A stretch of 4,399 nucleotides of DNA from IMG/VR virus record IMGVR_UViG_3300029253_000170; one strand, given 5' to 3'. Below, in pieces: positions 1-4,399 of this stretch; position 1 is the first letter of the stretch, and every line of letters begins with the position of its first letter. The stretch is from a virus (lineage: Duplodnaviria > Heunggongvirae > Uroviricota > Caudoviricetes). The notes beneath the pieces were generated by a model. The model had not been told where the DNA came from. It saw nothing but the letters and a program-made list of their open reading frames with translations, and did no database searches. The translations under genes and the position numbers were made by a program.

Positions 1-2444
<2,444 letters not shown>

Positions 2445-2466
2445 TCGTCATGCTCCATAAACGACA

Positions 2467-2486
2467 AAACCGCCCGCAGGCGGTTT
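2467..2486 (-). terminator. Perfect 8-bp stem / 4-nt loop hairpin in the I-J intergenic spacer, followed on the minus-strand transcript by a U-rich tract (terminator-like or RNA-stability element)
   Basis: Plus strand aaaccgcc-cgca-ggcggttt: the arms 2467-2474 and 2479-2486 are exact reverse complements. On the minus-strand RNA this reads AAACCGCC-UGCG-GGCGGUUU followed by UGUCGUUUAUGG, i.e. stem-loop plus U-run. It lies 22 nt upstream of the J start codon. I recall the same hairpin at the equivalent lambda position. Function is not established. Confidence 0.35.
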
Positions 2487-2504
2487 CACATAAAACATTT
2501 TGCA

Positions 2505-3176
2505 TCAGCGACCAATCACCACAACCTGACCACCATCCCCTTCGTCTGCCGTGCTGATCTCCTGAGAAACCACCCGCGACCCCACACGCATTTCACCGTA
2601 CAGAACAGGCAGAACATTGCCCTGGGCAACCATGTTATCCAGTGAGGAGAAATAGGTGTTCTGCTTACCGTTATCCGTTGTCTGTGTGCGGGGAGTTCTG
2701 GCTTTAGGTGCCAGCATCTGAGCCACACCGCCGAGCACCATACTGGCACCGAGAGAAAACAGAATGCCGGTCATACCACCGGCCCCAATGGCTGTTCCCC
2801 ATGCTGCAAGGGTGGCTCCGGCGGTAAAGAATGATCCGGCAATGGCGGCTGCCCCCAGGACAATCTGGAATACGCCACCTGACTTGGCCCCGGCGACTCT
2901 GGGAACGATATGAATCACAGCGCCGTCAGGCAGAGCCTCATGTAACTGCGCCGTTAATCCGGACGTGCTGACATCCTGCCCGGCAATACGTACCTGATAC
3001 CAGCCGTCGCTCAGTTTCTGACGAAACGCAGGGAGCTGTGTGGCCAGCGCCCGGATGGCTTCGGCCCCCGTTTTCACACGAAGGTCGATGCGGCGGCCAA
3101 ATCGTTGTAAATCCCCGTAAAGGCAGATGCGTGCCATGCCCGGTGACGCCAGAGGGAGTGTGTGCGTCGCTGCCAT
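2505..3176 (-). CDS. I: Tail tip assembly protein I (gpI-like), 223 aa, complete
   Basis: Track ORF 2505..3176 starts MAATHTLPLASPGMARICLYGDLQRFGRRIDLRVKTGAEAIRALATQLPAFRQ and ends ...EISTADEGDGGQVVVIGR with TGA at 2507-2505. Length and sequence match lambda gpI as I recall it (ubiquitin-like N-terminal half, Gly/Ala-rich hydrophobic C-terminal half). AGAGG-like purine stretch about 11 nt upstream of the ATG. The start lies inside the 3' end of K, as in lambda. Confidence 0.93.
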   Translation of the reverse strand: MAATHTLPLASPGMARICLYGDLQRFGRRIDLRVKTGAEAIRALATQLPAFRQKLSDGWYQVRIAGQDVSTSGLTAQLHEALPDGAVIHIVPRVAGAKSGGVFQIVLGAAAIAGSFFTAGATLAAWGTAIGAGGMTGILFSLGASMVLGGVAQMLAPKARTPRTQTTDNGKQNTYFSSLDNMVAQGNVLPVLYGEMRVGSRVVSQEISTADEGDGGQVVVIGR

Positions 3177-3809
3177 TTGTCGGTATACCTCTCTCGTTTG
3201 CTCAGTTGTTCAGGAATATGGTGCAGCAGCTCGCCGTCACCACAGTAAATGGCGGCATGATTCGGCACAGATGAACCAAAACAGCACAGCAGCACATCGC
3301 CCGGCTGCGCCGCTGACAGCGNNNNNNNNNNNNNNNNNNNNATTATCCAGATAGAGATTCTGACCGTTACGCCACCAGTCATCCTCACGATGAAAATCCG
3401 GCATCTCAATCCCCGCCAGATGGTAAGCATCCCGGAACAGCGTGTAACAGTCCGTCACCCCGTGCTCAAAGAGCCGCCCGGTGAGATGCGGCACACAGCG
3501 GAATTTATGAATCGCCCCCCGGCAGACCAGCCACCACGGCAAATCACTCTGCACCTGCAACCGCCGGTCGGCCTCACTCAGCCAGGGCAGACCACCGGGA
3601 TGGCTGTGCACCAGCGCCACAATCTCACCCTGCATTTCTGCCCGCAGCCAGTCCTCCGGCGACATCCGGAAATACGCCTCCGGCTCACCGGAGATATTTA
3701 CGCAGGGAAGATATCTGTCTCCCTCCGGCGTTCTCACCACAAAGCCGCACGACTCCGCTGGCGCACATCGCCGGGCGTGCGCCAGAATCGCTGATTCTGT
3801 CTCTGTCAT
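3074..3809 (-). CDS. K: Tail tip assembly protein K (gpK-like), MPN/JAB metalloprotease domain plus NlpC/P60 peptidase domain; interrupted by N-run 3322-3341
   Basis: ATG at 3809-3807, 5 nt after the L stop codon. N-terminal 156 codons (track ORF 3237..3809) contain a textbook JAMM motif H68-S-H70-x7-S78-x2-D81 (HSHPGGLPWLSEAD, plus 3567-3608) followed by the start of an NlpC/P60 fold (GVTDCYTLFRDAYH, Cys121 codon 3449-3447). After the N-run the protein continues in another frame (track ORF 3074..3430: LSAAQPGDVLLCCFGSSVPNHAAIYCGDGELLHHIPEQ...) with the His-containing half of the NlpC/P60 fold, ending at TGA 3076-3074. Domain architecture matches what is established for lambda gpK. Confidence 0.88.
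3322..3341. other. Run of 20 N (assembly gap or masked segment) inside K
   Basis: Literal n characters. The last complete K codon before the run ends at 3342 (AAT, Asn156). The downstream frame resumes with a codon straddling 3322-3320, leaving 19 N in between, which is not a multiple of 3. Confidence 1.
3567..3608 (-). other. JAMM/MPN+ metal-binding motif (HxHx7Sx2D) within K
   Basis: Codons for H68-S-H70-PGGLPWL-S78-EA-D81 of K read directly from the sequence; plus 3606-3608 gtg is reverse-complement CAC (His68). Confidence 0.8.
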
Positions 3810-3814
3810 GGGAT

Positions 3815-4399
3815 TTACTGCGAAAGTTTGTTAATGGAAAGGAAGCCGCCAAAGTTGCCGACGTTATTGCGAAACTTACAGCCACTCAGGCATTTGCTGC
3901 ATTTATCCTTCGTGATATCGGTTGTCGGCTGGTCATATTCATCCGCGACAGCCGGACCGTGATAACCGCACTCATCACCGCGATAGGTCCAGGTGCAGGT
4001 GTTGGCCAGCATGATACGTCCCGGAAAAACAGCGCCATCCGTTTCCGTCGGCGTGGACAGTACAAAGGAGGCACTGACCGCGCTCAGTTCGCTGCACTGC
4101 TCGATGCGCCAGCGGCTGATCACCTCCTGCTCCGGATCGGCGTCGCTGTTTCCGTTGACGAAGTTCACCGCATCCAGAAAACGGGCATAAACCTTACGCC
4201 TGACCACCGTTCCGCCGACCAGACTCTGCAGGTCTTCCGCCATCCCGGTGACCATACCGTACAGGTTAGAAACCGTCAGCGTGGGGCGCGTACTGGTACC
4301 TTTGCCATTCAGTTCGAAACCACTCCCCTGAATGGGATACGCCTGATACTGTCGCCCCTGCCAGGTGACCGGCTCACCTTTTTCGTTCTGCTCATTACA
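3815..4399 (-). CDS. L: Tail tip protein L (gpL-like), 5'-truncated at window end; C-terminal ~194 codons present
   Basis: Reverse complement of 3815-4399 translates in one frame without stops from the window edge: CNEQNEKGEPVTWQGRQYQAYPIQGSGFELNGKGTSTRPTLTVSNLYGMVTGMAEDLQSLVGGTVVRRKVYARFLDAVNFVNGNSDADPEQEVISRWRIEQCSELSAVSASFVLSTPTETDGAVFPGRIMLANTCTWTYRGDECGYHGPAVADEYDQPTTDITKDKCSKCLSGCKFRNNVGNFGGFLSINKLSQ, then TAA at 3817-3815. Matches lambda gpL as I recall it. The Met at 4255 used by the ORF track is internal, not the true start. Confidence 0.93.
   Translation of the reverse strand, partial: CNEQNEKGEPVTWQGRQYQAYPIQGSGFELNGKGTSTRPTLTVSNLYGMVTGMAEDLQSLVGGTVVRRKVYARFLDAVNFVNGNSDADPEQEVISRWRIEQCSELSAVSASFVLSTPTETDGAVFPGRIMLANTCTWTYRGDECGYHGPAVADEYDQPTTDITKDKCSKCLSGCKFRNNVGNFGGFLSINKLSQ

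What the first reader, a model, noticed from the sequence alone, without database searches (positions are those of the whole stretch)
3074..3809. K carries an intact JAMM metalloprotease motif fused to an NlpC/P60 cysteine-peptidase fold
Seen directly: H-x-H-x7-S-x2-D (HSHPGGLPWLSEAD) at K residues 68-81, then a Cys-containing segment (VTDCYTL) and, after the N-run, His-containing segments (HAAIYCGDGELLHH), consistent with an NlpC/P60 Cys-His-His catalytic arrangement. A two-domain MPN plus NlpC/P60 architecture is the established description of lambda gpK. The biochemical substrate of this tail-assembly protein is, to my knowledge, still poorly defined. The gene immediately downstream (I) has a ubiquitin-like N-terminal half, so the JAB domain may process or cleave the neighbouring I protein. 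Catalytic residues appear intact, arguing the enzyme activities are under selection.
Basis: partly seen in the sequence, partly recalled or inferred. Interest (0 to 1): 0.45.

Follow-up and report, generated by a model that had tools for sequence, protein, structure and literature searches.

The report
Lambda tail protein K: two-peptidase domains
This is the ordinary tail-tip assembly gene K of a lambda-like phage, with an intact deubiquitinase-like metalloprotease domain fused to an NlpC/P60 cysteine-peptidase domain. The idea that it clips the ubiquitin-like head off the neighbouring protein I was predicted in 2006 and has reportedly been demonstrated since.

Summary
Window 3074..3809 (minus strand) is gene K of a lambdoid phage or prophage, about 96-97.5% identical in DNA to PhiR46_1, phage 21 and lambda-derived phages. 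It sits in the canonical L-K-I-J order.

HSHPGGLPWLSEAD is at K residues 68-81, and the JAMM glutamate is at E19. C121, H187 and H199 form an NlpC/P60 Cys-His-His triad.

Pfam finds Prok-JAB (54 bits) and NLPC_P60 above their thresholds. Across 97 homologs at 31-59% identity, the JAMM residues are complete in 94 and the triad in 95. A high-confidence AlphaFold model (pLDDT 97) matches PfJAMM1, including its complex with the ubiquitin-like protein SAMP2, and MepS/Spr-type NlpC/P60 enzymes.

The apparent frame break is a masking artefact: 20 N replace 28 real bases.

Iyer, Burroughs and Aravind (2006) predicted that the JAB domain of K cleaves the ubiquitin-like domain off I at its conserved C-terminal glycine. 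A 2026 conference report says the Davidson laboratory has shown this. Cryo-EM virion structures show only the C-terminal part of gpI and no gpK.

The role of the NlpC/P60 half remains undefined. Verdict: already known, low interest.

The parts
3074..3809 (-). Gene K (tail tip assembly protein K). ATG at 3807..3809, TGA at 3074..3076. The real length is 744 nt / 247 aa, because the 20-nt N-run at 3322..3341 stands for 28 nt.
   Evidence: ORFs; translations; DNA alignment to PhiR46_1 and lambda K; annotated K in PV340565.
3516..3800 (-). JAB/MPN+ (JAMM) metalloprotease domain, K residues 4-98.
   Evidence: Pfam Prok-JAB, 54.3 bits. Foldseek to PfJAMM1 5LD9/5LDA, TM about 0.67, rmsd 2.5-2.6 A.
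3753..3755 (-). JAMM catalytic glutamate E19 (PAESCG).
   Evidence: Aligned to PNEACG of 2KKS. E in 95/97 homologs.
3567..3608 (-). JAMM zinc-site motif H68-S-H70-x7-S78-x2-D81 (HSHPGGLPWLSEAD).
   Evidence: Conservation: H68 97/97, H70 96/97, S/T78 96/97, D81 97/97.
3146..3479 (-). NlpC/P60 (C40, papain-like) peptidase domain, K residues 111-224, interrupted by the N-run 3322..3341.
   Evidence: Pfam NLPC_P60 on the C-terminal piece and on the unmasked homolog, residues 111-224. Foldseek to Acd33800, MepS/Spr and LytE.
3447..3449 (-). NlpC/P60 catalytic cysteine C121 (VTDCYTL).
   Evidence: C in 96/97 and the preceding D120 in 97/97 homologs.
3218..3259 (-). NlpC/P60 catalytic histidines: H187 (NHAAIY, 3257..3259) and H199/H200 (LLHH, 3218..3223).
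   Evidence: H187 96/97, H199 95/97, H200 92/97. The H-to-H spacing of 12 matches what I recall for E. coli Spr/MepS (H119/H131); that comparison is from my own knowledge and was not tested here.
3322..3341 (.). Masked N-run (20 nt) that replaces 28 nt. It causes the apparent frame break inside K.
2505..3176 (-). Gene I (tail tip protein I), the reported substrate of K. It has an N-terminal ubiquitin-like domain, a Gly-rich hydrophobic segment and a C-terminal plug domain. As the 223-aa ORF it overlaps K by 103 nt.
   Evidence: Pfam Lambda_tail_I, 96.5 bits, residues 14-97. Lambda annotation. Literature.
2886..2903 (-). End of the ubiquitin-like domain of I, V91-P-R-V-A-G96-A97. This is the predicted JAB cleavage site, at the conserved glycine. 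The site is inferred, not shown.
   Evidence: V91, P92, R93, G96 and A97 are invariant in 18 homologs. The equivalents FVPIIVGAGG and FIPVVEGAGG occur in distant loci. The Iyer 2006 prediction. gpI is modelled only from about residue 101 or 134 in virions.
3815..4399 (-). Gene L (minor tail protein L), cut at the window edge. It is the upstream neighbour. Its stop codon lies 5 nt before the K start codon.
   Evidence: Pfam Phage_tail_L, 318.8 bits.

Best explanation
This is gene K of a lambda-like siphophage or prophage. K is a cytoplasmic tail-tip assembly enzyme that is not part of the virion. It has two peptidase domains.

The N-terminal JAMM/MPN+ domain uses zinc held by H68, H70 and D81, with E19 as general base and S78 supporting. 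It acts like a deubiquitinase on the product of the next gene, I. It cleaves the ThiS/MoaD-like ubiquitin-fold domain (about residues 14-96) off the structural part of gpI, at or next to the conserved VPRxAG|A glycine. The C-terminal part of gpI (hydrophobic helices plus plug) then stays in the tail-tip lumen with gpJ, gpL and the C-terminus of gpH. The ubiquitin-like domain and K itself are discarded. Cleavage is reported to occur only after gpI has joined the tip complex, which would enforce the order of assembly.

The C-terminal NlpC/P60 domain keeps an intact Cys121-His187-His199 triad and is presumably also catalytic. Its substrate is not established.

What was shown here: the domain identities, the intact and conserved catalytic residues, the folds, and the conserved L-K-I order. 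What comes from the literature: the cleavage of gpI by gpK and the absence of gpK from virions. What is inferred: the exact cleavage site and any role for the NlpC/P60 domain.
For: - Identity and context: 96-97.5% DNA identity to annotated L-K-I-J blocks. Pfam finds Phage_tail_L, Prok-JAB plus NLPC_P60, and Lambda_tail_I. PHROG phrog_30 'minor tail protein', E=3.5e-161.
- Catalytic residues: a complete JAMM motif aligned with the solved JAB protein 2KKS. JAMM complete in 94/97 and the Cys-His-His triad in 95/97 homologs of 31-59% identity.
- Fold: AlphaFold model of the 96%-identical P0008, pLDDT 97.3, pTM 0.91. Its best structural matches include PfJAMM1, alone and bound to the ubiquitin-like protein SAMP2 (5LD9/5LDA); AMSH, Rpn11 and CSN5; and the NlpC/P60 enzymes MepS/Spr, LytE and Acd33800. 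There is also a sub-threshold NCBIfam hit to desampylase.
- Partner gene: I follows K both here and in distant loci L086 and L087. The I-like proteins there end their N-terminal domain in VP..xGAGG. G96 and A97 are invariant in closer homologs. phrog_35166 matches both the K JAB domain and I in one protein family.
- Literature: the prediction in PMC1779556. [quoted passage not shown]
Against: - The experimental demonstration is available to me only as a conference summary. I found no primary paper or preprint.
- The missing N-terminal part of gpI in cryo-EM maps could reflect disorder rather than removal. One paper still treats the N-terminal domain as present but unseen.
- My own docking test was uninformative. 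The AlphaFold model of the K-I fusion P0030 had pLDDT 55.9 and pTM 0.40.
- Nothing here says which of the two peptidase domains cuts which bond.
- K in this window cannot be read across 28 masked bases, so its intactness there is assumed from relatives.
Confidence: 0.85

Rival explanations
1. Anti-defence deubiquitinase. The JAB domain of K exists mainly, or additionally, to strip host ubiquitin-like tags off the phage central tail fibre gpJ. Bil-type defence systems conjugate such tags to gpJ to block tail assembly.
For: Hor et al. (bioRxiv 10.1101/2023.09.04.556158) show that Bil conjugates a ubiquitin-like protein to the central tail fibre of siphophages. [quoted passage not shown] K acts in the same tail-tip assembly pathway as gpJ, and its fold matches enzymes that cleave ubiquitin-like proteins from their targets.
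Against: K is an essential tail gene of lambda in hosts that lack Bil (established lambda genetics; one search states that gpK is required for tail assembly). The JAB domain co-occurs tightly with a phage-encoded ubiquitin-like domain in the next gene, across distant relatives. That already supplies a substrate, and the reported experiments identify gpI as the substrate. The two roles are not mutually exclusive.
Confidence: 0.07
2. The NlpC/P60 domain is the functionally dominant activity. It would act as a peptidoglycan endopeptidase used at infection or lysis, as in canonical NlpC/P60 cell-wall hydrolases. The JAB domain would be accessory or structural.
For: RefSeq names lambda K 'C40 family peptidase'. 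The closest structures to the C-terminal domain are cell-wall hydrolases: MepS/Spr, LytE and Acd33800. There is a weak, sub-threshold hit to TIGR02219 'putative phage cell wall peptidase'. PMC11101478 notes that the lambda peptidoglycan-cleaving enzyme used at entry is unidentified.
Against: gpK was not found in virions by mass spectrometry and was not resolved in any virion map, so it cannot act at entry. I noticed no N-terminal signal peptide when reading the translation, but I ran no predictor. The JAMM residues are as conserved as the NlpC/P60 triad, which argues against a decorative JAB domain.
Confidence: 0.05
3. The gene is a decaying prophage remnant. On this view the frame break at the N-run is a real frameshift, and K in this particular genome is a pseudogene despite its intact-looking motifs.
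For: 3074..3809 is 736 nt and the two halves are in different frames. The database holds many truncated or fused K and I variants.
Against: The N-run is 8 nt shorter than the homologous segment in all relatives. Restoring 28 nt restores the frame exactly. The other two N-runs in the window also break the J reading frame, which suggests that masking in general does not preserve length. Outside the mask the gene has no stop codons, and it is closest (96%'s listing) to the 247-aa protein P0008.
Confidence: 0.03

Closest known systems
Bacteriophage lambda tail tip assembly protein K (gpK / TAPK; GenBank AAA96551, NP_040598; PHROG phrog_30)
   Same: Same gene. It has the same position between L and I, the same 103-nt overlap with I, about 96% DNA identity, and the same JAB plus NlpC/P60 architecture and catalytic residues.
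   Different: There are a few amino-acid substitutions. The lambda reference record annotates only 199 aa, starting at M49, because that sequence is one base shorter at about lambda position 14267. This window, PhiR46_1 and independently sequenced lambda isolates encode the full 247 aa, including the JAMM glutamate.
Archaeal JAMM/MPN+ desampylases (PfJAMM1, PDB 5LD9/5LDA; HvJAMM1)
   Same: Same fold and the same E...HxH...S..D zinc site. They cleave a ThiS/MoaD-type ubiquitin-like protein at its C-terminal glycine. From my own knowledge, not a tool result: HvJAMM1 also cleaves linear ubiquitin-like fusions.
   Different: Only 20-23% identity. The NCBIfam desampylase hit is far below its cut-off (29 vs 130 bits). 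The archaeal enzymes are stand-alone and act on isopeptide conjugates made by an E1. K is fused to an NlpC/P60 domain, and its substrate is a genetically encoded linear fusion inside a tail protein.
NlpC/P60 (C40) cell-wall endopeptidases: E. coli MepS/Spr (2K1G, 8XUP), B. subtilis LytE (8I2E), C. difficile Acd33800 (9UBF)
   Same: Papain-like fold with a Cys-His-His triad. TM-score 0.57-0.68 over the target.
   Different: 15-21% identity. K has no export signal that I noticed when reading the translation (no predictor was run), and it is not in the virion, so peptidoglycan is an unlikely substrate. Iyer et al. suggest it may also process the ubiquitin-related protein.
Eukaryotic JAMM deubiquitinases (Rpn11, CSN5, AMSH/AMSH-LP)
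   Same: Same catalytic motif and MPN core. Lambda K was already listed beside them in the 2003 JAMM paper, PMC300881.
   Different: K has the minimal prokaryotic MPN core without the eukaryotic insertions. rmsd is 4-10 A when longer stretches are aligned.

Membership tests
JAMM/MPN+ metalloprotease (Pfam PF14464 Prok-JAB) | Profile match above the curated gathering score | tested here: met
   54.3 bits against a cut-off of 25, residues 4-98. 51.2 bits for the unmasked homolog P0008.
JAMM/MPN+ metalloprotease (Pfam PF14464 Prok-JAB) | Complete E-x(n)-H-S/T-H-x7-S-x2-D motif at the canonical alignment positions | tested here: met
   E19, H68, S69, H70, S78 and D81. They align residue for residue with 2KKS. 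The motif is complete in 94/97 diverse homologs.
JAMM/MPN+ metalloprotease (Pfam PF14464 Prok-JAB) | MPN fold | tested here: met
   AlphaFold model with pLDDT 97.3. Foldseek to 5LD9/5LDA: TM 0.67, rmsd 2.5-2.6 A over 107-109 columns. 2KKS, AMSH, Rpn11 and CSN5 also match. The model is of P0008, 96% identical, not of the masked window protein.
JAMM/MPN+ metalloprotease (Pfam PF14464 Prok-JAB) | Zinc binding and (iso)peptidase activity | not testable with these tools
NlpC/P60 (C40) peptidase (Pfam PF00877) | Profile match above the curated gathering score | tested here: met
   The C-terminal piece of the window gives 30.9 bits against 23. The full domain in P0008 gives 47.6 bits, residues 111-224.
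NlpC/P60 (C40) peptidase (Pfam PF00877) | Catalytic Cys, His and a third polar residue (His/Asn/Gln/Glu) in order | tested here: met
   C121 (DCY), H187 (NHAAIY) and H199 (LLHH). The triad is complete in 95/97 homologs.
NlpC/P60 (C40) peptidase (Pfam PF00877) | Papain-like alpha+beta fold | tested here: met
   Foldseek to 9UBF, 8XUP/8XUD (MepS), 7V6S, 2K1G (Spr) and 8I2E (LytE), target TM 0.57-0.68.
NlpC/P60 (C40) peptidase (Pfam PF00877) | Peptidoglycan (gamma-D-Glu-mDAP) endopeptidase activity | not testable with these tools
   gpK is not in virions, and I noticed no signal peptide when reading the translation (no predictor was run). The substrate is unknown.
Lambda tail tip assembly protein K (TAPK) | Position between minor tail protein L and tail protein I, upstream of central fibre J, on the same strand | tested here: met
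   L is 3815..>4399, K 3074..3809, I 2505..3176 and J <..2444, all on the minus strand. The order matches PV340565 and NC_001416.
Lambda tail tip assembly protein K (TAPK) | Near-identity to annotated K genes | tested here: met
   96-97.5% DNA identity over 2 kb to 83 phage records. 95-98%-identical 247-aa proteins are in the protein database.
Lambda tail tip assembly protein K (TAPK) | Uninterrupted 247-codon reading frame | tested here: inconclusive
   28 nt are masked by a 20-nt N-run. The frame is restored if the homologous 28 nt are present, but this cannot be read in the window.
Phage ubiquitin-like/JAB processing pair (TAPI + TAPK, Iyer et al. 2006) | The adjacent gene encodes a protein with an N-terminal ThiS/MoaD-like domain ending in a conserved glycine, followed by a Gly-rich linker and a C-terminal domain | tested here: met
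   Lambda_tail_I, 96.5 bits, residues 14-97. VPRxAGA is invariant. The same layout occurs in distant loci. The beta-grasp fold itself was not confirmed here: pLDDT was only 50-66 in the fusion model. That classification rests on PMC1779556.
Phage ubiquitin-like/JAB processing pair (TAPI + TAPK, Iyer et al. 2006) | K cleaves I at the end of the ubiquitin-like domain | not testable with these tools
   Reported in a talk summary. It is consistent with virion gpI being modelled only from residue 101, 134 or 135. My fusion-model docking attempt was uninformative.

The most novel reading that the evidence does not exclude
The conserved NlpC/P60 half of K has its own protein substrate in tail assembly, distinct from the JAB/gpI reaction. 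[quoted passage not shown] Another is a second cut in the Gly-rich linker of gpI. Alternatively, the JAB domain might double as a counter-defence against Bil-type ubiquitin-like tagging of the tail fibre. None of these is excluded by my data, and none is supported beyond the strict conservation of the Cys-His-His triad.
Probability: 0.12. Interest if true: 0.55.

Novelty: already known. Interest (0 to 1): 0.1.

Why it matters
There is little new here. The finding rediscovers, correctly and from raw sequence, a textbook lambda gene. Its domain architecture was published in 2003-2006, and its proposed JAB-on-ubiquitin-like mechanism was predicted in 2006 and has reportedly been demonstrated since.

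Its general interest lies in the system rather than in this locus. It is a virus-encoded, ubiquitin-like/deubiquitinase pair used as an assembly checkpoint, not for signalling.

Two points remain open. The first is the substrate of the NlpC/P60 domain. The second is whether K also counters host ubiquitin-like tagging defences.

One practical by-product: the lambda reference annotation of K (199 aa) lacks the first 48 residues of the JAB domain, including the catalytic glutamate. This traces to a probable single-base error in the 1982 reference sequence, and it can mislead domain-based analyses.

Tried and rejected
1. I used a database K-I fusion protein (P0030, 428 aa, probably a frameshift artefact in the K/I overlap) as a single chain for AlphaFold.
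   - The first alignment, mixing K-only and I-only rows (A2), was badly misaligned by MAFFT: the K C-termini were dragged onto I. I discarded it.
   - The second alignment (A3) was acceptable, but the model was poor: pLDDT 55.9, pTM 0.40, ubiquitin-like region 50-66.
2. The search for related loci with the diverse alignment A4 failed because no stretch was conserved enough. With the closer alignment A6 it returned only 93-99% identical loci. Of three single distant queries, two gave five usable distant loci and one gave nothing.
3. Sequence search of the PDB found no solved gpK, only the JAB protein 2KKS.
4. Literature searches for a primary paper on gpK cleaving gpI found only the conference summary.
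5. I considered a real frameshift or pseudogene at the N-run and rejected it.
6. The consensus scan did not flag the hairpin between I and J as terminator-like.
Full report
**What the window is.** All substantial ORFs lie on the minus strand and form the lambdoid tail-tip block:
- L: 3815..>4399, Pfam Phage_tail_L, 318.8 bits.
- K: 3074..3809.
- I: 2505..3176, Pfam Lambda_tail_I, 96.5 bits.
- The start of J: ATG at 2444.

A 2-kb stretch covering these genes is 96-97.5% identical to many Escherichia phages, including PhiR46_1, phage 21 and lambda-derived recombinants. All of them annotate the same four genes. Lambda itself has the same order.

**Checking the observation.** Translation of 3342..3809 gives the N-terminal 156 residues of K. 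By direct counting, HSHPGGLPWLSEAD occupies residues 68-81 (window 3567..3608), and VTDCYTL places the cysteine at residue 121. Downstream of the N-run, the frame that ends at the TGA stop (3074..3076) reads ...PNHAAIYCGDGELLHHIPEQ.... That gives H187 and H199/H200 in full-length numbering.

The stated coordinates span 736 nt, which is not a multiple of three, and the two halves are in different frames. The DNA alignment with PhiR46_1 and lambda shows why: the 20-nt N-run (3322..3341) stands in for 28 nt. Consistently, 2000 window bases map onto 2008 bases in the best records. The break is therefore a mask that does not preserve length, not a frameshift. The real gene is 744 nt, or 247 aa. The other two N-runs (869..909 and 2258..2271) also break the J reading frame.

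**Domain tests.**
- Pfam detects Prok-JAB in the N-terminal piece (E=1.5e-14, 54.3 bits, cut-off 25) and NLPC_P60 in the C-terminal piece (E=2.7e-7, 30.9 bits, cut-off 23).
- The unmasked, 96%-identical database protein P0008 gives both domains cleanly: JAB at residues 4-98 and NlpC/P60 at 111-224.
- In a sequence search of the PDB, the only hit is the JAB protein 2KKS. There PAESCG aligns with PNEACG, and HSHPGGLPWLSEAD aligns with HSHPATPARPSAED. This places the motif at canonical JAMM positions.

**Conservation.** An exhaustive HMMER search of 50%-clustered proteins found 2751 relatives. I aligned 96 full-length ones, at 31-59% identity, with P0008. Counts at the catalytic positions:

| Residue | Conserved in |
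|---|---|
| E19 | 95/97 |
| H68 | 97/97 |
| H70 | 96/97 |
| S/T78 | 96/97 |
| D81 | 97/97 |
| C121 | 96/97 |
| H187 | 96/97 |
| H199 | 95/97 |

The complete JAMM set is present in 94/97, the Cys-His-His triad in 95/97, and both in 93/97.

**Fold.** With that alignment AlphaFold2 gives a very confident, compact two-domain model (pLDDT 97.3, pTM 0.91). Foldseek against the PDB returns two classes of match:
- For the N-terminal half: PfJAMM1, alone and in complex with the ubiquitin-like protein SAMP2 (5LD9/5LDA, TM 0.67, rmsd about 2.5 A), plus 2KKS, AMSH, AMSH-LP, Rpn11 and CSN5.
- For the C-terminal half: the NlpC/P60 enzymes Acd33800, MepS/Spr and LytE (TM 0.57-0.68).

No solved structure has the two-domain arrangement, and no gpK structure is in the PDB.

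**The neighbouring gene I and the proposed mechanism.** I overlaps the end of K by 103 nt in another frame, as in lambda. Its Pfam match covers residues 14-97. Among 18 homologs, V91, P92, R93, G96 and A97 are invariant at the end of that domain. A Gly-rich hydrophobic segment and a conserved C-terminal domain follow.

In two distant groups of viral contigs the order L, K (JAB plus NlpC/P60), I-like is kept. These were seeded with K homologs only 35-38% identical to lambda K. The I-like proteins are recognised by profile comparison (98.9% and 98.2% probability). Their N-terminal domains end in FVPIIVGAGG and FIPVVEGAGG. A PHROG family, phrog_35166, matches both the K JAB domain and I in a single protein.

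All this fits a JAB enzyme that recognises a ubiquitin-like domain and cuts at its C-terminal glycine. The exact site, G96|A97, is my inference.

**What is already known.**
- Lambda K was listed among JAMM-motif proteins in 2003 (PMC300881).
- Iyer, Burroughs and Aravind (2006, PMC1779556) identified the ubiquitin-like domain in tail assembly protein I and described K as JAB plus NlpC/P60. [quoted passage not shown]
- Cryo-EM and mass-spectrometry studies did not detect gpK in virions. They model gpI only from residue 135, 134 or 101 onward (PMC10721106, PMC12617516, PMC11101478).
[quoted passage not shown] The cleavage reportedly occurs only after gpI has engaged other tip proteins, which would enforce stepwise assembly (PMC12908700). 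I found no primary paper.
- Hor et al. speculate that such phage DUB domains might also counter the Bil defence, which tags the central tail fibre with a ubiquitin-like protein.

**What remains open.** The substrate of the NlpC/P60 domain is not defined. Because gpK is not in virions, peptidoglycan is an unlikely target. Iyer et al. suggested it might also act on the ubiquitin-related protein. The protease that converts gpH to gpH* is described as unknown. I cannot link K to that step with the present evidence.

**What failed.** My attempt to test docking with a K-I fusion protein from the database gave a low-confidence model (pLDDT 55.9), after one unusable alignment.

**Verdict.** This is a new copy of a known gene, not a new feature. 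I score interest at 0.1.

Noticed in passing
window about 3669 (K codons 45-46); lambda NC_001416 about 14267 (L002 about 1268): The lambda reference sequence (J02459/NC_001416) is one base shorter here (GGAGGC-TATTTCC) than this window, PhiR46_1 and independently sequenced lambda stocks and derivatives (KT232076, LC730321, PV340536, DE3, imm21/imm434 hybrids). This is why RefSeq annotates K as 199 aa starting at M49, without the first 48 residues of the JAB domain, which include the catalytic glutamate. It is probably an error in the 1982 sequence. Only 4 of 122 matching records share the short form.
   Followed up: partly
window 869-909, 2258-2271, 3322-3341: The N-runs do not preserve length. 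The run in K is 20 nt where relatives have 28, and the reading frame of J also shifts across the other two runs. Any frame-based reading across an N-run in this window is unreliable.
   Followed up: partly
window 3074-3176: K and I overlap by 103 nt in different frames, and the start of I is annotated inconsistently. Lambda RefSeq gives 223 aa from M1. A large database cluster gives 210 aa from M14. PV340565 and LR595860 give 190 aa, which corresponds to a start at the GTG codon for V34 and would remove the first strand of the ubiquitin-like domain. The Pfam match begins at residue 14.
   Followed up: partly
database proteins P0014, P0030, P0081, P0116, P0131 and others: Many apparent K-I, L-K or NlpC-I fusion proteins occur as singleton clusters. 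They are most likely single-base indel errors in or near the K/I overlap, not real fusions. phrog_35166 may be a genuine JAB-I fusion family.
   Followed up: no
L086 3402-4205 and 4202-5053: A distant metagenomic phage contig carries two tandem K-like genes, followed by an I-like gene. Both K-like genes hit Prok-JAB in Pfam. In the second, I read an HTH...S..D JAMM motif in the translation and, by eye, an NlpC/P60-like C...H...H pattern that Pfam did not detect.
   Followed up: no
window 2461-2490 (minus strand): In the I-J intergenic gap there is a GC-rich hairpin, AAACCGCC-TGCG-GGCGGTTT, followed by TGTCGTTT, just upstream of the J start codon. It looks like a terminator or an RNA-stability element. 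The consensus scan did not flag it. Phage 21's record lists a terminator somewhere under the 2-kb match.
   Followed up: no
window 3815-4020 (minus strand, C-terminus of L): The cysteine cluster CTWTYRGDECGYHG...CSKCLSGC in L is probably the gpL cysteine cluster that binds the 4Fe-4S cluster described in the lambda tail papers. This is my own reading and was not tested here.
   Followed up: no
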